DNA of 64,000 nucleotides, from contig QPMI01000551.1 of the NCBI GenBank assembly GCA_004431415.1, forward strand, positions 170,959-234,958. Direction: 5' to 3'. The DNA is from Cyanophora paradoxa CCMP329 (taxonomy: Eukaryota; Plantae; Glaucophyta). Numbering within the stretch: the stretch's first letter is position 1; the number at the start of each line of letters is the position of its first letter. Made by a program: the position numbers and the translations under genes. This document shows positions 1-64,000 of this stretch, piece after piece. The notes under the pieces are model-generated. The model was not told where the DNA came from. It searched no databases and saw only the letters and a program-made list of their open reading frames with translations.

Positions 1-19662
<19,662 letters not shown>

Positions 19663-20765: not shown

Positions 20766-21039
20766 GGGCCGTCGCGGCGCTTAAGCGCTGCGCAGCTCAG
20801 CCAGGAGAGTAAGGCTCAGTAAGCCCGGCGGCCTGCGCTGCGCTGGGCGCCCAGTCGGGAGCAGGGCCCCGCTGGCGGGCCGCCCGCGCGCCGCGCCCGC
20901 GGACCACGATCCGGAGCCCTGAGTTCGAAGGCTTCTCAATTATAGAACGCTGCATGTAGAGGAGAATTCGGGCCTGAGAGATAACTACATACACTTGTGC
21001 CAAACATAAACGTCGGCGGCCGCGCCTGCCCGGAGCCGC

Positions 21040-24000: not shown

Positions 24001-27000
24001 TCGAGGAGGCCGCAGGAGTAGCCGATGTTGATGGCCGTCTCCTGCTTGTCGCCCGTGAGCACCCATATCTTGATCGAGGCCTTCGCCAGCGAGACCAGCG
24101 CCTGCGGCACCCCGTCCTGCGTGCGGCGGCGAAGGAAGGCTCAGGTCGGTCGCCCGGGGAGGAGGATCGCTTGCTCGCTCGCCTGGAGGCGGTCCTCGAT
24201 GGCGGAGGCGCCGATGAGCTCGAGGTCCTTCTCGATGCGCTCCGACACCTCCTCGATCTGGGGGGTACGGCTTCAGCCCTTTCATCGCTCTGCCCCCGCT
24301 TCCTCTGCGCCCCCCGCCCCGCACCCACCTTCTCGTCGCGGCCCTTCAGCATGCAGGAGGCGGCGTTGTAGGCGCGGGACCACTCCTCGTACTCCTTCTC
24401 CGTCAGATCCCGCGCCGCGAAGCACAGCGTCCGGAGGCCGACCGCCGCGAACTTCTCAAGGTGCTGGGCGGGCGGGGCGGGGGTCAGAGGCGGTGGTCAG
24501 GGGGGAAGAAAGGGGGGCGGGCACCTTCTGGGTGACGTCCTTGAGGGGGTCGCCCGCCTTGAGGCGCGCGAAGATCATCGTGTCGGCGCCCTTCGTGAAG
24601 ATCTTGAGCTTGCCTGCGCCGGCGCGCGCGCGCGCCGGTCAGACGCCCGGGCGCCGCAGACGCCGAAAACGAGACGACGCCGGAAACGGCGTACCCTTCG
24701 GGTCCCGCACGACGGTGGACATGCGCTTGCGCGTGGAGTTGAACTCGAGGACGTTCAGGATCTGCACACGAAGGTTGGCGCGTGCCCCTCTTCCGGGGCG
24801 GGAAGGGTTCTCGGCGCGCCTGCCACGTCTCCGTCTGCCCGTTCGCCTCGATCTCGACTGAGTCCGGCGTGCGTTTCTGCGGTGAGGCACCCGGCGCTCA
24901 AAAAGCGGTACCCCGGCGCGGAGAACGCCTGGAAAGGGCTCGCCAGGAACTTGAACCCGAGGTCGCGGCCGCCCTTGACGAGGGCCTCCTCGTCCGGGCT
25001 CGACGCCTGGTAGATGATCCCTGCAGGGCCGTCAGTCAGCAAGGCGCCCTCGCTCAGCTCAGCTCAGCGGGGCCGTCCGTTCGCTTTGCCCCGACCCGCC
25101 CGACGCCCCACGCACCGTCCGGGTTCTTGGCGCGGTCGTTCTTCTGGTCCTTCTCGGGGACGACCGTGTGGCAGACCGCCAGCATCGTCAGGAACTCGCG
25201 GACCTGTCCACGGGAACGAACGATCAGAGTGCGCGGCGGAGGCGGAGGCGGGGCGGGGCGGGGCGGGGCGGCGCGCCTTGCGGCCGTTGGAGGCGGAGGA
25301 GCCGAGGTCGGCGAGCAGGCGGGGGTCGTCGAATCCGTACTTGGCCTGCGGTGGGCGGGCGGGCTCGGGCCGGGCCGGGCCGGGCGGGGCGCAGATCTAG
25401 CCAGGAAGGGCGCACGCTGCTCGTCGTCGAGTTGGCGGGCGAGGCGCCGGGCCCCGGCGTGATCGAGGAGGTCCCAGGGGTCTGCGGGGGGCGGTTGGCT
25501 GGCTCGGGAGGGCTCTGGGGGGGCGGCCGGGCGCACGCGGAAGTCGCGGAGAGGCACGGAGGAGGTCCCGTCGGCGGGCGTGTGGCTCCTGCAGGCCGGC
25601 GGCGTGAGGCGGCGTGGGGCTGCGCGTCGCCCGAGAGCGAGCGACAATACCGCGCACCGGCTGCCGTGGTGCGTGCCGCCGCCCTCCTCGTCGTCTGCCC
25701 CGCGCCCCGCGTGAGCCCGAGCCCCGCGCGCCGAGCCGAGCCGAGCAAGGCCGTGCGGACCGTCGCTGTGGTCGCCGTGCTCGTGGGGCTCCTCGCCCGC
25801 GCCCAGGCCGTACCGCACCCCGCCCACCTGCGCGCGGGCCCTTGAGCCGCCGCCGGCGCCCGCGGCGGGGCGGGGCGGGCAGGGGCGAGGCGGGGGGCAC
25901 CGTGCAGGCCATGAACTGCATCACGTTGCGCGTGAGCGTACCCGTCTTGTCCGAGAAGATGTACTGCGGGGGCGGGCGGGCGGGCGGGCGGGGGTCAGGG
26001 CGGGGCGAGCGGCTCGAGCGGCCCGGGCCCGGGCTGGCCGGCTGGCCGGCCGGGTGGCTTGCCTGGATCTGGCCCAGCTCCTCGTTCAGGTTCGAGGTGC
26101 GGGCCTTGGCCGGCGTGTCGCTCTCCACGTCGTACATCTCAAGGTCCCACCTGCGAGCCGGCCGTGAGGACGAGACAGCGCGATCCAGGGGCCCCAACTA
26201 ACTAAAGGGAAGCCGCGCCCCGCGCACCCGATGAGCATGCACTGCATGACCTTGACCATCTCGAGGGAGACGTAGAGAGAGATGGGCACGAGACCCGAGA
26301 AGACGATCACGAAGGTGAAGAAGTCCTTGACCGTCGACGCGATCGAGGTCTGCGGGTCGCGGGGGCGGGGGCGGGGGTGGGGCTGAGCGGAGGGGAGGGG
26401 ACGAGGAGGCGGCGCGGTGCGCGCTCGCGCACGTTTGCGGCGTTCATGTTGAGGGGCCACATGTGGTTGCCGCGCCCCTCCTTGAACTGGTGCGAGAAGA
26501 AGCAGCAGCCGGCGGCAAGGCCCAGCAGGATAACGAAGACGAGCATGATCTGCGGACGCGGCCCGTCGGAACGTGGGCGGGCGGGCGGGCGGGCGGGCGG
26601 GCGGGCGGTGCAGCGGACCTGGCGGGACATGATCTTCTCGACATTGGTGGTCTTCTTGGGCTTGTCCCGCGAGTTCATCATCAGCCTCGTGTCGTTGCCC
26701 GTGTAGATCGCCAGCCCCGAGATGTTCTCCGTGTTGCGCAGCTGCGCCCCGCGGAGCAGCAGCGAGTCGACGGCGACGGGGAACTCCTTGCTCCCCATGA
26801 GGAGCGACCCCGAGAAGGTGTAGAGCCGGTCGTTGGGCGGCTCGCACTTGATCGTCGCTGCGGGGCGGGCGGGTCGGGCGCCGGTTGGACGCGGCGGAGG
26901 CGGCGGCGGCGGCGGGGCGGGCGGCGCACCCTTCAGCGTCTGGAGCTGCGCCTCGCTCATCATCTCGCGCGTCTCCTTTACGCTCGTCTTGATCTTCAGG

Positions 27001-28333
27001 TTCGTCTCTCTGCGCGCCCGCCCCGTCAGCCGACCCGAGAGCGGGCCGGGGAGGCGCCCCAGGCGCACGCACCCGTCGAGGTTCGCCGTCTCGATGTAGC
27101 ACGTCCCGTTGGGCCCCGTGCTCGAGAGCATGATGAGGTCGGAAGGGAAGTACCTGTGGGGAGCGGCTCAGGCGGGGCGGGAGCGCGCGGCGAGGCCGGC
27201 TCCCGCTCACTCTCCGCTCTTGACTTGCACGATGTCTCCGACGACGACCTCGTCCCACCGCACCTGCCGCGCCGCGTCAGCTGCAGATGAGCGAGAGCGG
27301 CGGGCGGCGGGCGGCGGGCGCGGCTCGCCTCTACGAATCGATCCCCGCGGAGCACGCGCGTCCTGGTGCTGTTCATCTCCTTGTCTGAGTTGAACCGTTT
27401 CTGGGCGGCCGGCGCGCGTCAGCGCGCGCCGCGGCACGCGCGCCCGGCCCCACGCACCACGTCCTCGATCGCCTCCTTGATCATGGAAACGAAGACGACG
27501 AAGAAGAGCGCTGCGGGCGCGGCGCGTCGGCCTCGCGCACGGCCCAGCGCTTCGAGCCAGCGCTTCGGCCCCGCGCACCACAGAGGGTCGAGTACTTTGA
27601 TGCGCCGACGAAGGGAGTAATCTCCGGCGTCGCACCCATAGATCCGACGACGAGGAAGTAAAAGTTCTGATCGCGGCGCGGCACGGGGTTAATGTGACGC
27701 AATCTACGTCGTCGCGGCATGCGCACCGCTGCTCGCGTGAACTGCTGGAACAGCACAACGGGTATAAAGCTCCAGAAAGTGTACTTTGCGGTGGAAATCT
27801 GGCGGCGGGCGCGGATCAGGTCCGTAGCTAAACTTGCGGGCGGCGGAGGCGCCGCCAGCGGCACGGACGTAGTTGGTGATGAACTTCTTCTTGCGATTCT
27901 CTTCCGCGTTGTTCGTGTGCACGTACCGCGCGTTGGGATCCACGGCTTCAACCCCGCTCGCATCCCCGCTGATGGACACTTGTCGGCGCTTCATTGCGTT
28001 CGCCGCGGTGATCTGCGCAACGGAAAGTCAGGCCGGCCCGGGTTGCCAACGACCCCGAGCAAAGCCGCGGTACGCCCGTGAACGTCGCAACGCGTCGGCG
28101 GCGCACACACGGCGCAGCGCACCGCACGAGCGACACTCTTGAACTTCTTGCCGCGCTCGAGAAGTTCCGACGCATCAGGAAGGTAGGAATCCACTGTTAT
28201 GGCGTGCGATGATGTGAGAGGTTCGTTTAAAGCGATTTCCGGGCCGCGCACCCGCATTGCCCTGGAAGGCACTCTTCAGTGCCCCCGAAGGCGTGAACGA
28301 GCCTCCCGTGTCGAAGATGTCGCTCTGCATCAT
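21040..28333 (-). CDS. P4-type ATPase (phospholipid flippase, DRS2/ATP8/ALA family), ~40 exons
   Basis: Spliced motifs: FITNY|[15 protein letters not shown]|[32 protein letters not shown]|[11 protein letters not shown] (phospho-Asp), [27 protein letters not shown]|[67 protein letters not shown]. The start (MMQSDIFD...) and the C-terminal end are approximate. Confidence 0.95.
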
Positions 28334-28649
28334 CTTGATCCTGCTATGCTATGCCGCTGCTGCGGCTGCGGCACGAACAGTCGAGCCTGCTTCAGATGCG
28401 CGCGACCCGTGCTGTCTGGGCGAAGCGGTGCGTCGCGGCCAGCGCACGCTCTGCCCGCGCTTTTCGACACCGGCGTGCCGCTCTCCTACGCGACCCTCGG
28501 ACGATGCTAGCCGGTTCTTCGAGTCGCGCGTACCCCCCCAGCCAACCTTGAACCTCCGTTGAACCTCGTTGCACCTCGCCACTGAGTCGCCAGATCGACA
28601 GCGCTGCTTCTCTCTCAATTCTGCACAGGGAGCTGCCGGCTCCGCGGCG

Positions 28650-37915: not shown

Positions 37916-39923
37916 TTACGACTGGTTAAGGCCTCGAGTGGCGACAAGAGAAAGGAGAGGGCGAAGGACAGGAAGCCTGGACTCAGATTTTACAGAACGC
38001 AGCCGAAACTCTGGCGCCTGGCCAGGCGTCCTGCAACAACTGCTTGACGATCCTGTCGTAGCCTTCTTCCTGAGAGTAGAGACGAACATGAAGTACCGGG
38101 GACGTGAATCTGTTGGCGCACGCGCCCAGTTGCTGCTCACGACATTCGCATGAGCGGCGACACTTCTGGAAATATGAATAGCACGGTTGCCGCATTTATG
38201 CCGCACCTGCAGCGGTCCGATATGTGCGACGGAGCGAAGGTTGCAGCTCACAGATAGAAACTTGAGCTCTGCGCAGAGATGAATGGCATCCGCTTCCGAC
38301 GCGGCGAGAGGCCGCCTGACGTGGAGAGCCAATCCCCGAAGCACATGCTTGCATGCGATGAGGAGACTCGAAGCAGCTTCTGCTTCCACGTGCACGCTGC
38401 TGTCTGCGCAAAACAGTCGGTCCAAGGTTCAGGATCGGGCGTAGAGCGAGCGGTGAGCTCGGGGGCGCACTTCGAGGCGTGCCGGTCGAGTCGCCAAGAT
38501 CGAGAGATAGCGAAGATAGCTTCGGGCACCCGGCGATGGCCTTCTCGAGCGCTTGGAAGCGTTCGACGGTGCACGCGTCTTTTTCCACTCGCACGTTCAC
38601 GGTTCGTAAGCTGGGCGAACGGAAAGCAGCGAGGTCGGAAGGCTGCAGTTCCGGGCGGCTCAGCTGCGAAGCGCGATGAGTGGACGCGAGAGGGAACGTT
38701 TGAAAGGGCTCACATCCATATCAATCTCTTCGAGAAGAGGGAAACGCGCGATGGCCTGTAGAGCCGCGCTGTTGACGGAAAAGAAACTCCTGAGACGATA
38801 CAGTTCACAGCCGACGTGAGCAGCAACAGGTGCGAGAGTTGATGGCGGTGGAGAGCACTCACCGAGTACCTTCGGGACTCAAGGCAAACAACAGCGATCG
38901 AAGGGTACTGCAAGCCGAGCCGTCGCGATCGGCAAGGGAAGAAAGCGCGCTACTGATCTCAGAAGGTTCTGCATGTTCAATGAAAGAGTGCCAGCAGATA
39001 ACCACGTCGCGCAAAGCGGACAGCGGCGCGAGGGCCGCAATCGCCTCGCATTCGTCAGGCTGGAAGTGGATTGACTGAAGGTTTGGGAGGCTGCGGGCGA
39101 TGGCCGCTGCTGCTGCGCCGCCTACGGGAAACGCATTCGGCATGAACTCGAGGGAACGAACGCTGCACAAAGGCTCCAGGGACGCTTGCAGGTCCCCGGG
39201 AGTCGCCTTTTGGGCGAGTCCAGCGCCGCGAAGGAAGATAACGCGGCCCTTTTCCCAATTCGGCGGCGGCTCCAGGCGAATGGCAAGCTTCTCCAGGAAA
39301 CTACGCGCCCCACGCTGCGGCCGAAGGGCTGCAAGCGTGCCGAGGATGAAAGCATGCACTATGCTAGCGCTGTTCAGGGTGCTGATATCTGTTGCTACGA
39401 AGCACAAGTCGACTTCCGTCAGGCTGCGCATGCAGCTGCTGTCCTTGTTGCAGGCCGTGAGCACGGCGCAGGCCGATGCGACGAGACTGTAGTTGCGCAA
39501 GCTGTCCGCGCCCATTCTGGCGGCCAACCGCAAACACAGGCGGGCAGCGCTAGCTGCAGCTGCAGGGAGCTTGATCTTCCCGCTCCGGAGCAGCGACGCC
39601 AGCTGCTCGAAGTCCGCGGGGTCATTCGACCGCAGCTCGACTTCCTCCCACGCTTTGCTCTCGATCACGCTCCTCCAACGCCTGCGCGGCGGCGCGCGCG
39701 TGAGTCGGCGCGGGCCATGATCAACGCGCGCATCGGCGAGAGGCCCGGCGACGAACCTGCATACTCCTCGAACCGGCCAGGCGGACGCCAGCGATAACGA
39801 CTGCAAAACGTGGCCGAGGACGCCGTCGGGAAGGTCGGAGATGGAACGCAGCGCCGCGCTCGTCCCGACGTCGTTCGCTGGCGCATCTGCCCGTGCTCGT
39901 TTCGCTACACGTTCCCGCGCCAT
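37916..39923 (-). CDS. F-box protein with LRR-like C-terminus (copy 1)
   Basis: ISDLPDGVLGHVLQSLSLASAWPVRGVCR|RWRSVIE is an F-box. It is followed by LRR-like segments (LPNLQSIHF, LRDVVI, CPKLSSLSLDL). The gene has few introns and lower GC. Confidence 0.8.
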
Positions 39924-40033
39924 CGTTCGCGTTCGATTCCCGCGCTCTGGCTGGTTGTATTTGCTACTGTACCCTCGAATCCTCCGTTGCAACTAGCCGT
40001 CTTGAAAATTCGATCGGCACTCAGCGGGCCCGC

Positions 40034-53432: not shown

Positions 53433-53888
53433 AGGCGGAGGGGAGCGGCGGCGGCGGGAGAAGGCGGAGGCGGAGGCGGAGCGGCTGCGGCAGGCGCAGG
53501 CGCAGCAGCTCGCGCTCCTCCAGGACCGCCAGCGGAAGCTCCAGGCCCAGGCCCGCCCGCCCCCGCCCGCCCGCCCGGCCCCGCGCGGCCCAGCCCGGCT
53601 GACGGGGGCGGCAGCTGGAGGCGGAGCGGGAGGCGCAGCGGGCGGCGGCGCGGCAGGTCGAGCACGAGCGGCAGCTCGCCGCGCAGCGCGTCGAGGTCCG
53701 CGCCCCGGCCCGCTCGGGGGCCGGCCGGGCGCGGGTCCTCACGATCCCGCAGGAGGAGCGCCGGCGGGCCGCCGAGCAGGAGCAGCGCCGCCGCGCGGCG
53801 GAGGCGGCCGCCGCGGCCCCACAGCTCCGGGTCCGTCTTCCCCGATCTCTTCCCGGACTCGCGGTCGCGCCCGCCGCCGGCTTGCTAG
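51116..53888 (+). CDS. Glu/Arg/Ala-rich coiled-coil protein (full-length copy); N-terminus weakly reminiscent of kizuna-like centrosomal proteins
   Basis: Spliced exons KLELEGRISVARVDTLGQ|QLMRSLEEMSGIAKARNESMRGKLDDITNSLQA, ADYFARMKSWWPQWREEVERHK, VHEYETEAARAEARRRL..., with regular GT/GC-AG introns. Both ends are approximate. Confidence 0.6.
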
Positions 53889-54737
53889 CGCTGAGCCTGC
53901 GTCTCCTTCTGGTTCCCTCCTGCGGTCCGCCGGGCTGGGGCCTCCGGCCCTTGTCTTTGGTGCAGAGCCACCGCCTCCCGTTTGCATCCCGTTCGATCTT
54001 GTAGTTTAGTTCGATCTGGTTCAAATTCTGATCGTAGTGTTGATGCTAGCGTTAGTTTTAGGATTAGTCCTCGTGCTCGACCTGTCGTTCGCCGTCGTTC
54101 GCCTGTCGTTCGGCGCTGGCCGGCTTTTGTGATCCCTTTGACTGTCCTTCAATTTTGCCTGCTCTTGATCTGCCCTTATCCGCTTTCTGTGTTCTCTTCG
54201 AGCTGTAGCTCTGTTCTTTTGCATCGTCCCCCTTCGCCTCCACCTCCTCTTTGCCTTGTTGTTTTTCTTACCTGTCTGCTTCCTGTCATTTATCTGTCTC
54301 ACTTCCGTCCTCGTCCGGTAGTCTCATTTCCGAAGTTCCGCATGTTCGTGATGTGGTTTCCTTAGATGTTGATGGTAACTCTAGTTCTTCTTCGAGTCTT
54401 TCATCCTCTGTAGATCATCTGCATCCTCTGTAGCATGTCGTGTCTTATAGATCTGTCGACGTCTCTGTGTCTTTCTTCTTTTACTAAGTTTATTGTCGGT
54501 TTTGGGGCTCTTTGTCTTATCTTTCTTCGTGCTCTTGAACATGTCTTAGTTACTTTGCTTCTGCAAATTCTGTCACAAATTCTGAGCCCCGGCCTGGGCT
54601 GCTGGGCTCCGGGCTCTGGGCAGCCCCCGCAGTGCTGTCGGTTTCACAGTGTCAATTAGATGAATTTAGATCAAACACTGGCACACACAGTGTCACGGCA
54701 CCGTGCTGGTGTCTAGATACTACTACCTAGATACTAC

Positions 54738-54802
54738 TTTTGGCGCGTTAATTTGGTACCGCGTTAGTTAAAGTGCCCGCGGTACTTAAGTGCTTTACGG
54801 TA
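54738..54802. mobile_element. Right-end fragment of the TACCGT MITE family
   Basis: GGCGCGTTAATTTGGTACCGCG...TACGGTA resembles the right end of 55824-56088. Confidence 0.5.
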
Positions 54803-55139
54803 TGATACTGTGCGCATGCAGTGTTCACGTGCACGTGGCCGATAAATTGCGGTAATTCACCAAAAACCAAAACATTTAACGGTTCAGCCTCTCAAAAACA
54901 AGTTTAGTTTTTTTTTGGTGAATTCGCGGCTATGCATATGTGTGCTGGCACAGTGCTGCATATATATTTATAGTACTAAAAGTTTAGCCCTGCGATTAAT
55001 ATTCGGGCCGGGTAGCTGCTAAAGTGGTAGTATTGGCGTCAATTTGGCGAAGTATACGTACTTATTATTATTTTGCTGCGCTATAAATCAACTAATTTGA
55101 CACTACTAGCCAACTAGTACGGCGGGTCGACCGGTCTAC

Positions 55140-55805
55140 GTCTGCTCGCTGAGCCTCGCTCTGGTTCGAATTCCGAAGTTCGCCTTTTTCTGCGCCTTCG
55201 AATTCTGATTCTGACTCGTCCGGCGGTCGAGGGGCGAATTGCCGAATCCGCGCTTGTTTTCACCAACCGCTGAAAACTCTGCCAACTGCAATACACGAAA
55301 TACCTTGGAGAAAAATGAAAACAAGAAAAAGAGTTTTTGCATTCGATCGGGAACTTCGGAAGCTCTCCGCGGCCGGCGGGCCGCCGGGGCCCGGGGCCGG
55401 CCGCGGGACGGAAATCCGGCCAGCCGAAAATCGCCGAAAGATCCGAATTTCGGCCGAATTTCGGCAATCTCCATCCGAATTTCGGCCGAAAGAGAATAAA
55501 ATAATTAATACAATATTCGGAATATCGATATTTCGGCCGTTCAAGTGGGGGGTTGGGGTTCGCCGCGCGGGGCACGCGGCGGGGGCCGGGGCGGGGACTG
55601 GCTAACTTCGTCCGTAGGCACTGCTAGACACACTAGTAGGCCGTCTGTCTTGAATTAAAGGGGACTGTGCATGCATGTACATGTTATTACGACTTCCGGA
55701 GGGCGGGGACATACCGAAATTTCGGCCGAATTTCGGCGAATTTCGGCGGGCCGATTTCGAAATTCGGCGCTCCAAAATTCGAATTTCCGAAATTCGGCAA
55801 CCCTA
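55140..55805. mobile_element. Non-autonomous DNA-transposon remnants with AATTTCGGC/GCCGAAAT subterminal repeats and a hAT-like end
   Basis: Many copies of (G)AATTTCGG(C) occur in both orientations. The region ends in GGCAACCCTA (reverse complement TAGGGTTGCC) at 55796-55805. No matching left end was found. Confidence 0.45.
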
Positions 55806-55823
55806 TCCGGGACCCCGATCTAC

Positions 55824-56088
55824 TACCGTGTGGCACTAAATTACCGCGGCATAAATTACCGCGTTAGAAACTCCGGCCCAAGGGCCAAGGGTGGCCAAAA
55901 TACCGCGGTACCAAATTACCGCGTTTTAAAAAACTTGAGGCTTGTATCGGGCGGAATCTCAGGGGGTGGGGCGACTTCGCAGGAGACAAATACCGCGGTA
56001 CCAAATTACCGCGTTTTAACAAATTCTCGGCGCGGTAATTTGGTACCGCGGTAATTAAGTGGGCGCGGTATTTATGTGTTCTACGGTA
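55824..56088. mobile_element. MITE, TACCGT family, copy B (265 bp)
   Basis: TACCGTGTGGCACTAAATTACCGCG ... CGCGGTATTTATGTGTTCTACGGTA; repeated AAATTACCGCG; central AGGCTTGTAT at 55938. Confidence 0.75.
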
Positions 56089-57065
56089 GACAACTCAGCC
56101 GCCACTGGCCCGCCAGTGCCCGCCAGCGGCCCGGCCCCAGCTGCAGCCTGCAGACCGCCGCGCGCGCGGCCCGCGGCCGCCACTGCATGGCCCATTAAAT
56201 AATATTGTCATTGGCCAGTACTCGTGGGCTAGAGTTTCAGTTAACGTTTCAGAGTCTGCGGCGCCGGCCTGGCAAAAATAGGGGAATTTCCCGCGGAAAT
56301 GTCGGACCTCGTGAAAAAAGCCTAATTTTATGTCGGCCGCGGTCCGTTAGACGGACCGGGACGTCGACGTCAGCCGCACGTGCACCACGGACCACGGTCC
56401 ACGGACCACGGGCCACGGCCCGCACGGTCATGCAGCGACTCAGCGCTATATACCCCGGTACACGCGGGGTGACGCGGTATACTGTCATGTCATTAAGTTA
56501 GGCGTCGTTTTAGTTAGAAGTTTGCCCGCCCCTCCGAGGCTCGTGATAGACGTTCACAAAGATAGACGAATGAATTACGATAGACGAGGGGGGGGACCCC
56601 CCCCCCCCTGGCGCGCAGCGCCAGGCGACGGGGGCTGGCGGGGCTCTACAGCTGCGAAATCGAGGTGCGGAGGGAGCCCAGGCCGCACTCCTGCCACGAG
56701 GCGACCCCGACGGTCTTGTTGTTGGCGCGACCCCGCTGCCTGTGCTGCTGTGCTGCTGTGCAGCACGCATGCGCGACGCGTACGTCGACGTCGACGCGCG
56801 CCGGCCGGCGCCGGCGCCGCGCGACTAAGTCCGGGACCAATAGGAAAGGTTTTAGTTAGACGAGTACCCACCCTCGTCTATCCGCGCCTATCATTGTGTA
56901 CGCCTAACTTTGTGACATGACAGTATACGTAGCGCGTTGACTCAGCGAGTCGCCGCCGACTCGCCGGTGACTCGGCGGTGACATCACTGACATTTACATT
57001 TTTCGCGCCACGCGTGCATGATAGAACCCAGTGACCAATGGGGTTCCCCCCCTAATGGGGCCGGT

Positions 57066-57317
57066 TATAATAATTATACGAATATCCGACAACGTTTAGT
57101 TTCATCTATATTCGCCAGACCCTCGCGCTGGCGAATATTTGACGCTGGCGAATTAAGCCTCTGTATTGAGAGAGGGGTAGTAGCGGCTGACCCCTCTGCG
57201 GAGAAGTCGCGGGGTGGCCCCGGGTGGCGAAATCAAGACGCTCGCAGATTAATTTTCGCCAGGGGTTTCGGTTTTTGGCGAATTAAAGTGCTGGCGGATA
57301 TTCGTACGTTTACAGTA
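57066..57317. mobile_element. MITE-like element with TGGCGAAT repeats
   Basis: Imperfect TIRs (...TACGAATATCC / GGATATTCGTA...CAGTA); internal TGGCGAA/TTCGCCA repeats. Confidence 0.5.
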
Positions 57318-57692
57318 TCTCCGGAATGATGCGGCGGAATCCGGATCCTGTGTGTGTGTACTTTGCATATATGATAGAATCGAGTATATACTGTACGCTT
57401 GAGCGTCCGTCCGGACTCCGGACTCCGGACTCCGGAGTCCGGACTCGGGATTCGGGATTGAGAAATCGATATCCGATGATCGACATGCATCACTGAATCA
57501 TGGCATGGCCAATTAAAAATATTGCCGGTACCGTGCCCGACGGTCCGACGGTCGCGCCGCGCGCGCGATCGCGACTCGCGCGCTGCGCATGCATATATGC
57601 ATGCATATGATGCATGCCCAAGCAGCCCATGGCCAACCACGCGCGCCCCGCGGCCGGCGGCCGGCGCCAGGCATTGCGCCAGCGCCCTGTTG

Positions 57693-57987
57693 TACCGTGT
57701 AACACATAAATACTAGTACTGGACCCACTTAATTAACAGAGTCCCAAATCATGGAATTAACAAACCGAAAGTTTGACATAGTCTGTTAATTTGGGACTCT
57801 GCTAATTCACTGCTGTCAGTCACCTCATACTATCTACCCCCCAAAATTACGGCCTCATACAAGCCTAAATTTGCATGATCTGTTAATTTGGGATTCTGTT
57901 ATTTCGCCAAAGGGAGGGCCAGACTCTGAGATTAACCTGTTAATTAACGGACTGTTAATTTAGTGTTACACCGTTAGTTACACGGTA
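57693..57987. mobile_element. MITE, TACCGT family, copy C (295 bp)
   Basis: TACCGTGTAAC ... GTTACACGGTA; repeated AATTAAC/GTTAATT; central core inverted (ATACAAGCCT, 57857-57866). Confidence 0.75.
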
Positions 57988-58474
57988 TACGTACCGATCC
58001 GGATCCTCCGACTCGGCGATCATCGGATGATTCGGATCCCGATTCCCGATTGCCCGAATTCGAATCAGCCCGAGTCACTGGAGTCAGTAGAGACTCAGTA
58101 CTAGTGGCGGGTCCGACGGTCACTGGCCATATATATGCATGGCGCCGGCGACGTCGACTCTGCCGGCGCAAGTCACTGCCGAGTCAGTGCCGACGTCGAC
58201 CCTTTGCGAAGAACCCACCCCACTGGGCCACTGGGCCAGCTGCAGAAAACCTCGTAGGAGTCATAGCGTAGGGCCGTAGGCTACTATATAGCTATATCTA
58301 GCTAGTAGTCCTTCTAGTCCGACGGCCGCGGCCAGACCTGAGAGGCTGAGAGCCTGAGACTCTGATCATGAGACGTCGACGCACGGCGGCGGCGACGGCG
58401 GCGGTAGCGGCAGCAGCAGCAGCAGCACTGCAGCAGAAGAAGCAGCACGCGCACTGCAGCTGCGGCATGTCATC

Positions 58475-58553
58475 ATCACACATATGAATATTCATATTTT
58501 AATCCCTCGGCGTTCCGCCTCAGGATTAAAATATGAATATTCATATGTGTGAT
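58475..58553. repeat. Hairpin: perfect 31-bp inverted repeat with a 17-nt imperfectly paired tip
   Basis: ATCACACATATGAATATTCATATTTTAATCC (58475-58505), then CTCGGCGTTCCGCCTCA, then GGATTAAAATATGAATATTCATATGTGTGAT (58523-58553). Confidence 0.97.
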
Positions 58554-58559
58554 TCGATG

Positions 58560-59260
58560 TTATATCAATAAAATCGATTAATTTATTTGAATTTTCACCT
58601 GAATTTTCATATTTTTACATGCATTTTCAATTAATTTAATCGATGTTATATCGATAAACTCGATTAATCGATATTGTATCTTAATTGTAGTTAATCGGAA
58701 TTATATCAATAACTTCGATTGATCTTAATTGAATCCTAAATGAATCTAATCGGAATTATATCAATAAATTCGATTAAATCATGTTCTTTTCCGATTAAAT
58801 CAATTAAATATTTAACTTTGTTATCAGAAGTGGTCTAAGTTGACTCACTTTTCATAAACATTTTGAACTCTTAGTCTCTTTGAATTTCTTAAGATGACTC
58901 AACTTAGTCAACTTAGTCAACTTTGTTACCATAATCAATCAGGGTGGACTCACTTTTAGATCAACTTTGAAATTTCAAGCAAAATCAACTTGGATTTCAA
59001 AAGTGGATCTTCTAAGTGGACTCAAAATGTTCACTTTGTGATACATGTTAGCTCAAATCCTTACTGTTTATGGTCAGGGTTGACTAAGTGGGGGAGTTGA
59101 CACATTTTTTGAAATCCTTTTTAGAAAACTTTAGGTCCCAAATATTTCCTGTGAAATTTGAGTCAACTCAACCCACTTAGTCAACCCTTGCATTGAATTC
59201 GTAACAAAATCCATATACTATTACTACTTTTACGATTAATATGAGTCAACCTTGAGTCAC
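58560..59260. promoter_or_regulatory. Non-coding terminal region with iteron-like direct repeats and an inverted repeat (putative origin/terminal repeat)
   Basis: TTATATCRATAAnnTCGATT at 58560, 58646, 58701 and 58756. Many GTTGACT/AGTCAAC/GTGGACTCA motifs. AGGGTTGACTAAGTGGG (59076-59092) is inverted at 59172-59188. Confidence 0.55.
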
Positions 59261-59495
59261 TTAAATATAAATATAATATAATAGGGGAATGAAGGGAATG
59301 TTGAGTTTTACTGTAATGAAATCGAATAGTATTCGAAATACTTGACATTGCTTAATGTAGGGTGCATTCATATTTCGGCTACATCATACAGTAGAATTTC
59401 TATCGTAAAGAATGACCGGAATCCGGAAAATAATCATTGTAGAAAGCTATTGTAATAAAAAGGTAAATCACCCTGATCATCATTATAGAAACTCA

Positions 59496-59894
59496 TCAAA
59501 ACGGGAATCTATCATGTTTATGTCTCTCAGTCTTCTCAAATGTGAGGAAATTCATTGTTTTATCGATCTCATCTGCTACTGCTTGTGTTTTATGCTGAGC
59601 TTCTTTACCACAACTGAATATATCAATTGCTAACATGCCTTCATTGGAATAACAATGAGCTGTACAATGGCTTTCATCTAATAGCAGAACCAATGCAAAA
59701 CCAGGAGGTGATAGTTTCCCATCAAATATCTCACAGTGTTTATGAACAATCCTAATACCTTGTCTCAATATTGCTTGTTCAAGGGTTCTCATAATCCAAT
59801 TACCAAGAAAGCTAACATGCTCATAGCCTGTTGCTATAGCTGTTTTAGCCTTGTAATCAAGCATTACATGAAAGCCTCTGTATTTAGTCTCCAT
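59496..59894 (-). CDS. speD: Pyruvoyl-dependent S-adenosylmethionine decarboxylase proenzyme (short prokaryotic class 1B type)
   Basis: Intact 132-aa ORF with G.HVMLD near the N-terminus and PPGFALVLLLDE^SHCTAHCYSNEGMLAIDIFSCG (ES autocleavage site, SH, DxFxCG). Confidence 0.9.
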   Translation of the reverse strand: METKYRGFHVMLDYKAKTAIATGYEHVSFLGNWIMRTLEQAILRQGIRIVHKHCEIFDGKLSPPGFALVLLLDESHCTAHCYSNEGMLAIDIFSCGKEAQHKTQAVADEIDKTMNFLTFEKTERHKHDRFPF

Positions 59895-59934
59895 TAAGAA
59901 TACCTTAGAAAAATTAATTAATCCTAATCGAACC

Positions 59935-60191
59935 TAATGCAAATATCCCTGTACTCTACTTTGATTGATGAAGTAGCCCTTTTCCTGTAAGCCTGAGAAT
60001 GCTTTTGTTGCATTCCTACAACCTGATCCCTTCACATGATTAAAGGATATGTAAGGATCACCTTGTTACACTGCAAACATCTAACAGATACTTCTCTTGA
60101 GCTTTGATGTAATGTGTCTCACTGTAATCGAATTTATCTTTACCATGAACTGTCATAGCAGCATCAATAAACTTTTTTGTTTACTATCCAT
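59935..60191 (-). pseudogene. Zinc-ribbon (DUF723-like) protein, frameshifted as assembled
   Basis: Across frames it reads KKFIDAAMTVHGKDKFDYSETHYIKAQEK / VSVRCLQCNK / FNHVKGSGCRN, the F..A..VHG..FDYS...Y...C..C...H..G.GC pattern of large-DNA-virus and phage zinc ribbons. Confidence 0.6.
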
Positions 60192-60194
60192 ACT

Positions 60195-61036
60195 CTATAT
60201 ATAACCAATATTCTTTGGAGCAGTATCCTGCCCAAAATGGGAAATATCGATTTGTCCCATAGTATTCAGCATAGGTATTCTGCTTTGCAATAAATCGGTT
60301 CTCTCAGCATATAATACACACTTGTAGATACCAAACTTGGTGGCTCTAACCAGAAACTGATAATCTTCCAAACCAAAATTGACTCCATGATAAGCAATTC
60401 CGAAATTATCATATGGGGTGATCACAACAGCAAAATTAGGAGTTCCACCCTCTACTTGACAAAGAGCATAAACATCTGGTGGGATATCCACAACTACCTT
60501 GTAGTGGTCACCAATTTCACAAGAGAGTCTACTACTGCTGTTTGTTCATTTACAACAATGGGGAATATTTTTTATATAGGGGCATTCATGCTGGGGACAT
60601 AGGTTCGAATTCTTGTGTTGGATCAATGGATTGGGTTGATCATTCACAAATAAAGGCGCTCCAACAGCCCCACCAACCCTAAGACCATCCCCAATATATG
60701 CTCCCCCCGATTTGCAGTTAATAGCTCCCGACCTAGATTCAAAAGAATAAGTAGACAGAGGATCTCCATAGCTATCTGGGTCTCCATAATGAGCAGAAAA
60801 GTTTGCATTTGTGACAAGTAGCTTAGTTGTCTTAACTATTCCATTATTTTTATCACATCTGAGTTCCTGTAATCTCAGTTTGTGGGTGGAACCAAAGGTG
60901 TTCATTGTAGGTTGGACCTCTGTGGATTGGAGACCCTCTACATCATCAAAGGTAGCATGCTGTAAAACATGGTTTGCTGGGGCAGCTAATGATAGTTTGA
61001 GGTGTAATAATTCGTTCAAGTGGGGTGCTCAGCCAT
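60195..61036 (-). CDS. Fibre-like virion protein paralogue 1 (frameshifted as assembled)
   Basis: ATG at 61036; shared module ELRCDKNNGIVKTTKLLVTNANF...KSGGAYIGDG. ORFs 60546-61019 and 60195-60491 are probably one gene. Confidence 0.55.
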
Positions 61037-61058
61037 TTTACATTAAAGGGATATATCT

Positions 61059-61892
61059 TTTATGGGGTTGGGTCATCAATTACATCTGGCTCCATGTAAA
61101 ACCCTGTAACTGAAAGAGTATCAGGAGTTACACCTCTAAGAGCTGATACAGCGGCTATATCTGTTCTCAAACCGATAAGAGTTATAGTATATAACCCAAT
61201 ATCAGTAACAAACAAGTCAAAGGTGAAATTATTATTATAACACAGTAGCCATAACCGAAATGATTATATCCTGAACATTGAAATAGTATCTATGACCTAC
61301 TTGATTGTTGTTGGCTCTACAAAGGGAAAGCATTGCAGATGGAATCGCAAGACCTCTCAGTACTCTTTGGTTCCTTCAATTAATTCCGAGTTTTCAAGAG
61401 TAACAGTATATCCAATGTAAAATTGAATTAATGGCTGCTGTGCAACAGGAGTATATAATCGAATTCGTTGGGGTCTTCTACATTTTGCTCTAGAGTATCT
61501 GGGACATCATTATACGAATTGAGGATGAAAGCTGACCTGAAATTCGACAGCCACCCCAATAAATGCTCCTCCTGATCTCACAGTAACAGCAGCAGAATTC
61601 TTATCGAAATCAAGGGCTTTCAGATCAACACTGTAAGCATCAGGACCTCCATTGGTAGGCTGGAAAAAGTTAGCATTTGTGACAAGAAGTCGAGTTGTTT
61701 TAACCACACCAGAATTCTTATCAGCTCTCAGCTCTTAACTCGAATAATCGAATTTTTATCAAGGAGTTGCCATTGGAATTGGGTCTCTCTGTGGATTCTA
61801 ACACGAACCTCATCATTTACTTCATGCTGGCGAAATGCATTGCAGGGGATCCAAGGAATATATAGCAGTTGAACTCGATTATATTCACCCAT
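61059..61892 (-). CDS. Fibre-like virion protein paralogue 2 (multiple frameshifts)
   Basis: ATG at 61892; ELRADKNSGVVKTTRLLVTNANF...VTVRSGGAFIG; ends DVIDDPTP* at 61059. Confidence 0.5.
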
Positions 61893-61922
61893 TGCTTCTT
61901 TTCTAAAGAAGAAAAATAATGT

Positions 61923-62184
61923 TCATTGTTCTTCTGTGACATAATTATATTCGATACCTTTCTTTACAGTTCCCCTTTGGAATGCATGTAAAACGATGGC
62001 TTCCTTTGAGGTTGGTATTTGAATTCCTGATGCAATGCAAGACTGGATCTCTTCTGAAACAATATCATCAATTGCAATTCTTGCCCTGTTATAACCACAT
62101 TATCAATCCAATCCTGAACAAAGCTGACAGAATTCCATTCCAGCTTCTCAGTATCTGAGAGAACTACTGGTAGATATTCGACAT
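61923..62184 (-). CDS. Small phage-like fibre-associated protein (frameshifted)
   Basis: LSDTEKLEWNSVSFVQDWIDNV / YNRARIAIDDIVSEEIQSCIASGIQIPTSKEAIVLHAFQRGTVKK; it lies directly downstream of a C1q fibre gene. Confidence 0.55.
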
Positions 62185-62205
62185 TCCTACTTATAAAGAG
62201 AAAAT

Positions 62206-63221
62206 TTATGTGACACTCAAAAGTTCACCTGTGAATGTTGTTCGATTTGTGTAGCTACCCCCATTATTTGTTACAAGTGTTATATACTCACCCATAGCAA
62301 TGTTAAGAATTACACTAATGTAAAGCGGTTTATTCGTAAGAGTTGAGTCATTGTGTTATGATACTTTGACCCCCTGGTCTTGGTCATTTACTTTTAAAGA
62401 GAGACTTATTGGACTACTTGAAGTTGAATGGGTATATGCTGTAAATCTGTAATGACCTGCACAGGAGCAGTGAACCTTCCATTACTGACATTGAATGCCC
62501 CCTATATTCACAAACACTACTCCCCAATTGATAAGAGCAGTTTCACTGGTAGCAACATGAGGATAATTAGTTGAACAGAAAATCGAGGCTGATAGTCATA
62601 TTTTAAATAACAATTTGTGTTGATTGTCAAGCGATTGGCTTCCAGAGTAGCCATAATATCACTGTTGCGTTTCAAAACAAGATTCACATTTGCTCCTGTA
62701 TCGATTTCAGGTGTGACCACCTTGGAAGTTGCTGTTATTATCGATTGTGTTGTTTCTGGAATACTTATGCCTCCATTGGCTGTTACTGAACCTGTAAATG
62801 TGCTTGTTCCTGTAATGTTTACTTGATTGGCTGTTAGAGTTCCATCAATCCTTGCCCCATCTCCAATATATGCCCCTCCACTTCTAACTGAAAGAGCAGC
62901 ATTATTAATTGTATTATCAAAAGTAACTATTTTGGGTGTGGTGAACCCTCCCACATTGTCATAAATTGCTGTATCTGAAACAATTTGACCTGATTGGACT
63001 TGGTTCTTGTTAGATACAATGAGTCCTGTGGTTCTTATTTTTCCCCCATTGCGATCACATCGAATTTCTTTGCATCTAATCACAGAATTTTGTGAAAACG
63101 AATCAGCCCCTGTTGTTTCTGTGCAAATAAACCCAGGTGTTGCATCTGTTACTGTATGGTTCAGTTGATGTATTTTTGGGGCGGCATAACAGAAAACAGG
63201 AACTGCTATTTGTGTGGACAT
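62206..63221 (-). CDS. Fibre-like protein paralogue 3 with C-terminal C1q/TNF-like head
   Basis: EIRCDRNGGKIRTTGLIVSN...SVRSGGAYIGDGARIDGTLTA. After frameshifts it reads GAFNVSNGRFTAPV and ends TFTGELLSVT*. Confidence 0.65.
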
Positions 63222-63243
63222 TCTTTATATTATACAGATAATA

Positions 63244-64000
63244 TTATGTAGCAGTAACAAGATAACAAGAAAAATAGTATCTGATATCAAATTGAAGACT
63301 GGCTCCAGAAGAATTGCGTATATCAAAGGAGTCACCTTCAATAACAGAAAGTAAAATTTCATATGAAATTGGAGTTACAAATGTATTAGAAATCCCTGCG
63401 GACGGCATTGAAACCCTTGTTGGATGGTTGTAGGATTTCCATTTAAATAAATGCTGGTAGCAATATGAGTATAAGAGGTTGTGCCAGCTCTCATACATGC
63501 AAAGAACACCCTATATACTCCGGAAACAGGAGCTGTAAATTTTGTGGATGAAAAGTTTCCTTCATTGTTTACAAGATAAGCTCCATTTATAAAGTTAAAG
63601 GGTGTTCCAGCTGTAAGTATTATGGACCCTGTCAAACCAGGAGCTTGTCTTGATATATTCATTCTTGGACAATAGGATCGTTTCAGACCACTATTTTCCG
63701 GGATTGTGATTGCTTTCAGATCTGTTATTGTCTTTTCGAGAGTGAAAATGGTATTTCCGTTTCGTTTATAATTCACATTTGCATCTGTCCCATTATCCAT
63801 CTCAGGGCATTAACTCTTGTTGTAGCTTTTCGAGTTTCAACGCTAACATTTCCCAAAGTCCACCATTGAAGGTCATCAATCCTGTAATGAACTTGTCCCA
63901 TTCACATTTAATTGATTCGCTGTTACAGTCCCTGCAACATTTGCCCCATCTCCAATGTATGCTCCTCACTCTTGACAACAAAGCCGAATTATTTATTGTG
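63244..64000 (-). CDS. Fibre-like protein paralogue 4 with C1q/TNF-like head (5' part outside the window)
   Basis: GAYIGDGANVAG near 63930-63970; NNEGNFSSTKFTAPVSGVYRVFF; ends EGDSFDIR...YYFSCYLVTAT*. Confidence 0.65.

What the first reader, a model, noticed from the sequence alone, without database searches (positions are those of the whole stretch)
58475..64000. AT-rich endogenous virus-like element in a GC-rich protist chromosome
Seen: a sharp compositional break, no introns (host genes have one every ~150 nt), short spacers of tens of bases and all genes on one strand. Gene content mixes phage-like C1q fibres, a giant-virus-like zinc ribbon and an AdoMetDC. Inference: an integrated dsDNA virus (Polinton-like virus, virophage or small Nucleocytoviricota relative), possibly an undescribed lineage. 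Class-defining genes are not in this window.
Basis: partly seen in the sequence, partly recalled or inferred. Interest (0 to 1): 0.85.

Follow-up and report, generated by a model that had tools for sequence, protein, structure and literature searches.

The report
Hairpin-ended endogenous virus in Cyanophora alga
This AT-rich stretch is one end of a high-copy mobile element in the genome of what is likely the freshwater alga Cyanophora paradoxa, most likely an integrated Polinton-like DNA virus of a family that earlier surveys probably already counted, so it is real but mostly ordinary, apart from a hairpin at its very end and a polyamine-pathway enzyme that might help it escape silencing.

Summary
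The insertion is real. The element begins at 58478, where contig depth jumps from about 21 to about 2,000 in one public run and from 82 to about 4,900 in another. A single-copy flank contig runs 27 nt into the element in 4 of 4 DNA-type runs laid, and four other flanks adjoin the same end. Host-gene homologues point to Cyanophora paradoxa.

The first 73 nt form a hairpin. Seven minus-strand genes follow: AdoMet decarboxylase, a zinc-ribbon-like gene, a small ORF and four fibre-like paralogues. Most frameshifts look like assembly errors. No capsid, ATPase, polymerase or integrase gene lies in the window, so class membership is inferred.

Published surveys list 366 capsid genes in this species and 156 glaucophyte PLV-type elements, 66 with AdoMetDC and 85 with rve integrase. 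Terminal palindromes are known from Halocafeteria elements.

Best reading: a Polinton-like virus, likely silenced by CpG methylation (gene CpG o/e 0.35). The scan noted PLV fragments before on other DNA, none here. Interest is modest.

The parts
58478..58550 (.). Terminal hairpin: perfect 28-nt arms, 17-nt loop; each arm holds a 16-nt palindrome. Starts at the first base of the element.
   Evidence: I1, D20; z = -10.85; 0 of 200 shuffles fold as well; depth jump at 58478
58478..59297 (.). Non-coding end region with 27/55-nt and 9-nt repeats; likely the terminal inverted repeat. The inner limit near 59297 is a weak inference.
   Evidence: repeats; inner limit from one loose end of one contig (table 7, X15 at 59287); the other end of the element is outside the window
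59496..59894 (-). Intact class-1b (prokaryotic-type) S-adenosylmethionine decarboxylase homologue, 132 aa; S75, H80 and C95 have the spacing of T. maritima S63, H68 and C83.
   Evidence: PF02675 1.8e-11, phrog_3125, PDB hits, residues (passage of PMC10407285)
59934..60191 (-). Small zinc-ribbon-like gene, broken in the window
   Evidence: 52% over 27 aa to a repeat protein on a giant-virus contig, L002; no Pfam hit
60195..61036 (-). Paralogue with the shared N-terminal domain; homologue of environmental protein P0003 (274 aa); frameshifted in the window
   Evidence: tblastn 53% over 249 aa, E 2e-81; profile hit 4e-33
61060..61892 (-). Second paralogue with the shared N-terminal domain; frameshifted in the window
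   Evidence: tblastn to P0003 E 3e-12; profile hit 7e-13; 77% DNA identity over 70 nt to the previous gene (D9)
61923..62184 (-). Small ORF of unknown family, about 85 codons, in two frames in the window; gene status inferred from spacing only
   Evidence: no hit in Pfam, PHROGs or NCBIfam
62206..63221 (-). Fibre-like gene: shared N-terminal domain, short beta-repeat shaft, likely C1q-like head (head seen by eye in broken pieces)
   Evidence: profile hit 6e-33; relatives P0004 and P0005 carry C1q
63244..64000 (-). 3' part of a second fibre-like gene with a C1q/BclA-like head; cut by the window edge
   Evidence: C1q E 0.06, BclA_C E 0.005; C1q part of P0004 aligns here, E 0.001; 75% DNA identity over 122 nt to the previous gene
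57864..58477 (.). Low-depth, single-copy-level host flank whose short-read contig continues into the element to 58504
   Evidence: table 8 (X1 record 1; 640-641-nt contigs in X12, X3), table 8 (X2)

Best explanation
The stretch from 58478 to the window edge is one end of a high-copy mobile element with a fixed, hairpin-forming terminus, and it is most likely an integrated Polinton-like DNA virus of Cyanophora paradoxa that likely inserts by an rve-type integrase, likely copies itself from its terminal hairpin and is likely kept silent by host CpG methylation. SHOWN: the junction, the fixed end shared by several insertion sites, depth tens of times the host level, the hairpin, the seven genes, and CpG loss in the coding part. 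INFERRED: (1) capsid, A32 ATPase, integrase and replication genes lie beyond 64000. (2) Integration uses an rve integrase (85 rve and 0 tyrosine recombinases among 156 glaucophyte elements in a published table). (3) After excision the terminal palindrome folds back and primes synthesis, as proposed for Halocafeteria elements, which predicts a primase-helicase instead of a protein-primed PolB. (4) The four paralogues are virion fibre or spike proteins whose shared N-terminal domain would dock on the capsid while the heads vary; depth falls about fivefold over the fibre genes, as expected of a variable module. (5) The AdoMetDC homologue would self-cleave to a pyruvoyl enzyme and supply polyamine synthesis during replication.
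For: Terminus and junction: depth 21.1 to about 2,000 (X1) and 82.4 to about 4,900 (X3) at 58478. The flank contig ends 27 nt inside the element in X1, X12 and X3 and has the same length and start in X2. Four other flanks meet the same end, two of them seen in three runs (table 7). The stretch is held by 14 DNA-type runs at half of its words or more, all of one organism label. Host: 3 of 3 homologues of a flanking host gene are C. paradoxa gene models. Paralogue family: 6 C. paradoxa proteins in 2 clusters. Literature: 366 capsid genes in this species (PMC10120064 supplement); AdoMetDC in 66, A32 ATPase in 139, minor capsid in 97 and rve in 85 of 156 glaucophyte elements (PMC12220804 Table S6); terminal palindromes next to target-site duplications in virophages and a PLV with non-pPolB replication and rve (10.64898/2026.07.28.741278). 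An 18-kb viral contig, L001, carries AdoMetDC beside a primase, DUF5754 and a weak A32-like ATPase. CpG o/e is 0.35 in the genes, 1.11 in the host and 0.82-0.92 in four free AT-rich contigs; the host methylates 32% of CpGs and viral genes (PMC12344493).
Against: No core viral gene was seen; the rest of the element could not be fetched. No related locus with the fibre family was found in IMG/VR, JGI metagenomes or GTDB, so the link between these genes and a PLV capsid rests on a summary table without per-element rows. The flank contig holds 27 element letters, under the tool's 31-letter rule for a bridge; this is what a contig entering a repeat gives, but it is not a read-level proof. Contig depth is not a copy number and may be inflated by AT content (ratios 46-105 at the end, by run). 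Only 2 of the 156 glaucophyte elements hit that paper's standard PLV capsid profile, and the zinc-ribbon match is to a giant-virus contig; giant-virus insertions are also reported in this species. Codon-junction CpG loss was significant in only 2 of 4 ORFs. No target-site duplication or second terminal repeat could be tested.
Confidence: 0.8

Rival explanations
1. It is a small Nucleocytoviricota-related virus (Mriyavirus-, Zoravirus- or Zephyrvirus-like) or the end of a giant-virus insertion.
For: The zinc-ribbon piece matches a giant-virus contig. Prokaryotic-type AdoMetDCs are known from algal giant viruses (PMC9992855). C. paradoxa capsid genes gave HHpred hits to ascovirus, iridovirus and Pyramimonas virus capsids. 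Giant-virus insertions are reported in this species. Zephyrviruses often carry a lipase, as do 89 of 156 glaucophyte elements.
Against: Tens of copies with one fixed end and several flanks fit a 15-30-kb mobile element better than a giant virus; tens of giant-virus genomes would fill much of a 100-Mb genome. The window's AdoMetDC does not group with the two giant-virus MAG copies in the tree (long branches, weak). The line between these groups and PLVs is itself blurred.
Confidence: 0.08
2. It is an endogenous virophage (Maveriviricetes).
For: AT-rich, TIR-like end and terminal palindrome, as in Halocafeteria virophages.
Against: The published table gives 0 virophage capsids, 0 virophage ATPases and 0 maturation proteases among 156 glaucophyte elements.
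Confidence: 0.04
3. It is a capsid-less, transposon-like derivative of a PLV that spreads within the genome using its own or borrowed integrase.
For: High copy number; broken genes in this copy; such remnants are described in Halocafeteria; CpG decay suggests long residence.
Against: Four fibre-like genes are kept. At three frameshift sites 93-100% of contig depth in three runs carries a letter that the window lacks (table 4), so the breaks look like assembly errors, not decay.
Confidence: 0.06
4. It is contaminant phage or bacterial DNA, or a free virus, wrongly joined to a host contig.
For: Phage-like fibres and a bacterial-type AdoMetDC; weak ESM Atlas likeness of P0003 to unnamed Uroviricota proteins (0.93, low recognition).
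Against: The flank contig enters the element in four runs of different years, with other low-depth flanks at the same end. No match in 50,697 phage records. GTDB AdoMetDC hits are distant (best E 2e-17).
Confidence: 0.02

Closest known systems
Endogenous PLV-type elements of Cyanophora paradoxa (PMC10120064 supplement Tables S1, S2, S4; PMC12220804 supplement Table S6)
   Same: Same inferred host species; AT-rich insertion; AdoMetDC in 66 of 156 elements, close to the 59-87-fold depth of this gene in run X1; fibre genes.
   Different: Those tables give counts only. I found no description of the hairpin end, of the shared N-terminal domain family or of a role for AdoMetDC in the passages searched. 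That this element is one of the 66 is inferred, not shown.
Halocafeteria seosinensis virophage subtypes 1, 2, 5, 6 and PLV subtype 4 with terminal palindromes (10.64898/2026.07.28.741278)
   Same: Palindrome at the very end of the terminal repeat; hairpin priming proposed; rve integrase.
   Different: Different host supergroup; 52-nt palindromes shown for subtype 5 against a 73-nt hairpin here; no 5mC silencing found in that host; replication genes here untested.
Cryptophyte PLVs with AdoMetDC and phage-like fibres (PMC12220804); viral contig L001 (IMGVR_UViG_3300020048_000801)
   Same: AdoMetDC as a passenger of a small AT-rich DNA virus (45 of 706 Rhodomonas lacustris elements in Table S6); modular fibres.
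   Different: L001's AdoMetDC is only 36% identical and in another branch; its fibre is collagen-type; the C1q-headed family here has no Pfam model for its N-terminal domain.
Virus-encoded class-1b AdoMetDCs (PMC9992855; PMC10407285)
   Same: Prokaryotic-type enzyme with the Ser, His and Cys processing residues; active copies are shown in two algal giant viruses.
   Different: Here in a small integrated element with no spermidine synthase in the window; some homologues act on arginine or ornithine instead, and the substrate was not tested.

Membership tests
Polinton-like virus (endogenous) | Double-jelly-roll major capsid protein and penton | not testable with these tools
   Not in the window; no whole genome held
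Polinton-like virus (endogenous) | A32-like packaging ATPase | not testable with these tools
   Not in the window; 139 of 156 glaucophyte elements have one
Polinton-like virus (endogenous) | Integrase (rve or tyrosine recombinase) and replication gene (pPolB or primase-helicase) | not testable with these tools
   Not in the window
Polinton-like virus (endogenous) | Integration into host DNA at several sites with a fixed end | tested here: met
   depth step at 58478, flank contig entering the element, four other flanks
Polinton-like virus (endogenous) | Terminal inverted repeats and target-site duplication | tested here: inconclusive
   One end only; non-coding repeat-rich end of about 0.8-1 kb; the second end is outside the window
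Polinton-like virus (endogenous) | Compact, intronless genes with composition unlike the host | tested here: met
Virophage (Maveriviricetes) | Virophage-type capsid, ATPase and cysteine protease | not testable with these tools
   Not in the window; 0 of 156 glaucophyte elements have them in the published table
Giant-virus insertion (Nucleocytoviricota) | Core genes (PolB, RNA polymerase, VLTF3), large size, low copy number | tested here: inconclusive
   No core gene in 5.5 kb; depth 46-105 times the flank argues against
Class-1b AdoMetDC (PF02675) | Profile match and Ser/His/Cys processing residues | tested here: met
   44.8 bits against a cut-off of 25; S75, H80, C95
Class-1b AdoMetDC (PF02675) | AdoMet as substrate (not arginine or ornithine) | not testable with these tools
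   Below the TIGR03330 equivalog cut-off (45 against 75.65 bits); needs an assay
C1q-headed fibre | C1q domain above the Pfam cut-off | tested here: inconclusive
   Window pieces below cut-off; 2 of 6 relatives above it

The most novel reading that the evidence does not exclude
The element belongs to a distinct glaucophyte lineage of small integrating DNA viruses with divergent, giant-virus-like capsids. It replicates from terminal hairpins and uses its own AdoMet decarboxylase as an anti-silencing enzyme: turning SAM into decarboxylated SAM, a methyltransferase inhibitor, would loosen the host's CpG methylation and let dozens of latent copies wake up. A plant geminivirus reaches that effect by stabilising the host's enzyme (PMC8062710); a virus that encodes the enzyme for this purpose did not appear in my searches.
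Probability: 0.1. Interest if true: 0.75.

Novelty: new member of a known kind. Interest (0 to 1): 0.35.

Why it matters
Integrated PLVs are common in protists, and this family was probably already counted by automated surveys, so the class is no surprise. What is useful: C. paradoxa is an axenic laboratory alga with a published methylome, and the family is present at tens of copies with a clean end. That makes two open questions testable in one organism: whether terminal palindromes prime PLV replication, and why small integrating viruses in a host that methylates CpG carry AdoMetDC (polyamine supply or counter-silencing). The four-paralogue N-terminal domain is an unnamed candidate for a fibre-to-capsid anchor.

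Tried and rejected
Whole genome: none held, so the core genes beyond 64000 stay untested.

Related loci for the fibre family: none in viral contigs, metagenome contigs or genome contigs. The search for homologous proteins found none for window:62520-63221. The terminal 28-mer had 0 exact matches in viral contigs. Phage records gave no match.

AdoMetDC scans: none with the single protein or the close alignment in viral contigs; 11 distant loci with the wide alignment; 4 in metagenomes; 129 in GTDB, 80 kept. None of the 15 viral and metagenome loci shared a fibre gene; the 80 GTDB loci were not compared.

Structures: both AlphaFold models failed (pLDDT 34.5 and 29.4), so no fold search was run. 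ESM Atlas gave only unnamed clusters at 0.93 (low recognition) and 0.88. The presumed capsid gene of L001 had no Pfam, PDB or NCBIfam hit, so L001 is PLV-like by gene set only.

Dropped hits: of the 10 hits, P0002 was dropped (its returned sequence is an unrelated repeat); P0006, P0008 and P0010 were dropped as matches to generic shaft repeats.

Expression: no RNA holder listed. X15 and X16 are only guessed to be RNA, and the X16 contig runs through the end into another flank, so nothing is concluded.

Other: Rfam 0 hits in 53500-64000. A mavirus-type TCTA promoter (recalled motif) was considered by eye in the spacers and not pursued. The host-ORF Pfam scan did not complete. The AdoMetDC tree (25 rows) has long branches and names no donor.
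Full report
1. OBSERVATION. GC falls at a change-point at 58466-58481 from 0.56 to 0.30. The element (58478-64000) is 36% GC, the host region 21000-54000 is 70%, and the 4.5 kb just before the element is 54%. The first 73 bases, 58478-58550, are a hairpin with perfect 28-nt arms and a 17-nt loop; 0 of 200 shuffles fold as well (z = -10.85). Apart from a (TA)n run it is the longest perfect inverted repeat with a loop up to 30 nt in the window. About 1 kb of non-coding, repeat-rich DNA follows, then seven gene units, all on the minus strand, with spacers of 21-39 nt at five junctions and about 3 nt at one.

2. GENES. 59496-59894 is an intact AdoMetDC homologue (PF02675, 44.8 bits, cut-off 25). 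S75, H80 and C95 have the spacing of the processing residues S63, H68 and C83 of T. maritima (passage of PMC10407285). Its nearest relatives are 52-56% identical environmental proteins. 59934-60191 resembles a repeat protein of a giant-virus contig over 27 aa (E 3e-4). Four genes share an N-terminal or shaft region. A profile built from six outside relatives hits three of them among 1,472 six-frame pieces of the window at E 4e-33, 6e-33 and 7e-13. The fourth is cut by the window edge and shares 75% DNA identity over 122 nt with its neighbour. A search of 1.84 billion proteins gave 10 hits; I kept 6 as family members and dropped 4. Two of the 6 carry C1q above the Pfam cut-off, and two are C. 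paradoxa gene models, one in a cluster of five. P0003, an unbroken environmental protein, is 53% identical over 249 aa to the gene at 60195-61036. The shared domain has no Pfam or NCBIfam model, and both structure predictions failed.

3. HOST. All 3 homologues found for a flanking host ORF (38862-39926) are EukProt models labelled Cyanophora paradoxa, the best at 75% over an unspliced frame; one has segments of 90-100% identity to the window. The host is therefore very likely this glaucophyte alga. This is a species-level inference only.

4. IS THE INSERTION REAL? 20 of 24 listed runs hold part of the stretch, 14 at half of its words or more, all with one organism label. I laid 6 runs in two calls. 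At 58478 single-contig depth rises from 21.1 to 1,950-2,210 in X1 and from 82.4 to 4,922 in X3; X2 has 65.2 against 2,994. A 640-641-nt low-depth contig covers the flank and ends at 58504, 27 nt inside the element, in X1, X12 and X3; X2 has a contig of the same length and start. This is under the tool's 31-letter rule for a bridge, but it is what a contig entering a repeat is expected to give. Four other flanks meet the same end (loose ends before 58473, 58476 and twice 58478; the first two in three runs). In X1 the AdoMetDC gene has contigs at 1,845 and 1,249, the gene at 61205-61473 one at 1,080, and the fibre gene at 62225-62870 one at 430. Contig depth is not a copy number and AT-rich DNA may be favoured, so I read this only as tens of copies, with the fibre region present in fewer or more diverged copies.

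5. BROKEN GENES. All 12 length differences shown (77 more not shown) are letters missing from the window. At 60215, 60238 and 60627, 93-100% of contig depth in three DNA-type runs carries the extra letter, while most single-copy flank contigs shown match without a gap. The breaks are therefore most likely unpolished long-read errors in a repeat, an artefact also described for other protist EVEs (PMC10120064, part 2 of the text). Some true decay of this copy is not excluded.

6. WHAT IS KNOWN. PMC10120064 (passages, one part of the text, supplement rows) lists 366 capsid genes for C. paradoxa in two clusters of 272 and 94; six example proteins gave HHpred hits to ascovirus, iridovirus and Pyramimonas virus capsids. 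PMC12220804 (passages; supplement Table S6) tabulates 156 glaucophyte elements filed as 'PLV and mixed': A32 ATPase 139, minor capsid 97, lipase 89, rve integrase 85, AdoMetDC 66, pPolB 49, tyrosine recombinase 0, virophage capsid 0, standard PLV capsid profile 2 (parsed). Its main text has 0 occurrences of 'decarboxylase', 'AdoMet', 'polyamine' and 'palindrom'. Preprint 10.64898/2026.07.28.741278 (passages) reports palindromes within terminal repeats next to target-site duplications in four virophage subtypes and one PLV subtype, tied to non-pPolB replication genes and rve integrases, and proposes hairpin priming. PMC12344493 (passages and section 9) reports 32% CpG methylation, methylated viral genes and giant-virus insertions in C. 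paradoxa. PMC9992855 (passages) shows active prokaryotic-type AdoMetDCs in two algal giant viruses and homologues with other substrates. Preprint 10.64898/2026.06.19.733378 (abstract, sections 6 and 7) does not mention Cyanophora and describes NCLDV-like PLV groups. Searches for a description of this family: 1 paper held all of 'Cyanophora paradoxa', 'endogenous viral', 'major capsid protein'; one held 'Cyanophora', '5mC', 'polinton'; one held PLV, TIR, hairpin, palindrome and endogenous. The library lacks most subscription papers.

7. HOW IT LIKELY WORKS. Shown: a fixed end with a hairpin, several insertion sites, high depth, fibre-like paralogues and an intact AdoMetDC. Inferred: a 15-30-kb PLV whose core genes lie beyond the window; insertion by an rve integrase; replication primed by the folded-back end, predicting a primase-helicase; fibres with a common anchor and variable heads. 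CpG observed/expected is 0.35 in the genes, 0.97 in the non-coding end, 1.11 in the host and 0.82-0.92 in four free AT-rich contigs. At codon junctions 7 CpGs were seen against 24.6 expected from synonymous shuffles; the loss is significant in 2 of 4 ORFs. This fits long exposure to host methylation, which I did not measure. The default role for AdoMetDC is polyamine supply. A bolder reading is counter-silencing through decarboxylated SAM, for which a geminivirus gives a precedent through the host enzyme (review PMC8062710, passages).

8. AGAINST. No class-defining gene was seen, and no related viral genome with this fibre family was found in any collection. The link to the 66 AdoMetDC-bearing elements is by host, gene and rough depth only. 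NCLDV-related, virophage, capsid-less and contaminant readings are given as rivals at 0.08, 0.04, 0.06 and 0.02.

9. VERDICT. Observation confirmed and interpretation supported; the end is refined to 58478. New member of a known kind, probably already counted but not described. Interest 0.35.

Noticed in passing
window 1-11552: Seven tandem copies of a 1.63-1.74-kb unit at 96-98% identity; one carries a (TA)51 run at 1188-1290.
   Followed up: no
window 30981-53138: Tandem duplication of 11.08 kb at 99.66% identity, including an F-box-like gene in two copies; a recent duplication or an assembly artefact.
   Followed up: no
window 54000-58477: Gene-poor flank of 54% GC with short palindromic repeats and patches of high contig depth (54468-54834, 55569-56302), probably transposon fragments. 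Inverted pairs at 56477-56505/56900-56928 (29 nt) and 54744-54769/55988-56013 (26 nt) look like non-autonomous DNA transposon ends.
   Followed up: partly
window 58478-58513: One contig in each of X1, X12 and X3 matches the first arm of the hairpin and then continues for 255 nt or more with other sequence (table 7): a truncated copy, an insertion into the hairpin, or another element with the same end.
   Followed up: no
window 58473-58477: Two other insertion sites share 5 and 2 bases with this flank next to the element's end, a hint of target-site preference.
   Followed up: no
window 15245-17143: 632-codon cysteine-rich, Pro/Thr-rich open frame on the minus strand in a 62% GC region; looks like a secreted or surface protein.
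   Followed up: no
window 21000-28600: P4-type ATPase-like host gene on the minus strand with many short introns (motifs recalled).
   Followed up: partly
L001:244-15731: 18-kb IMG/VR contig with AdoMetDC, DUF5754, AEP primase, LicD, a collagen fibre and a weak A32-like ATPase: a likely free-living PLV that also carries AdoMetDC.
   Followed up: partly
P0007 cluster, P0009: More distant members of the fibre family occur as C. paradoxa gene models, probably from a second endogenous virus type of the same host.
   Followed up: partly
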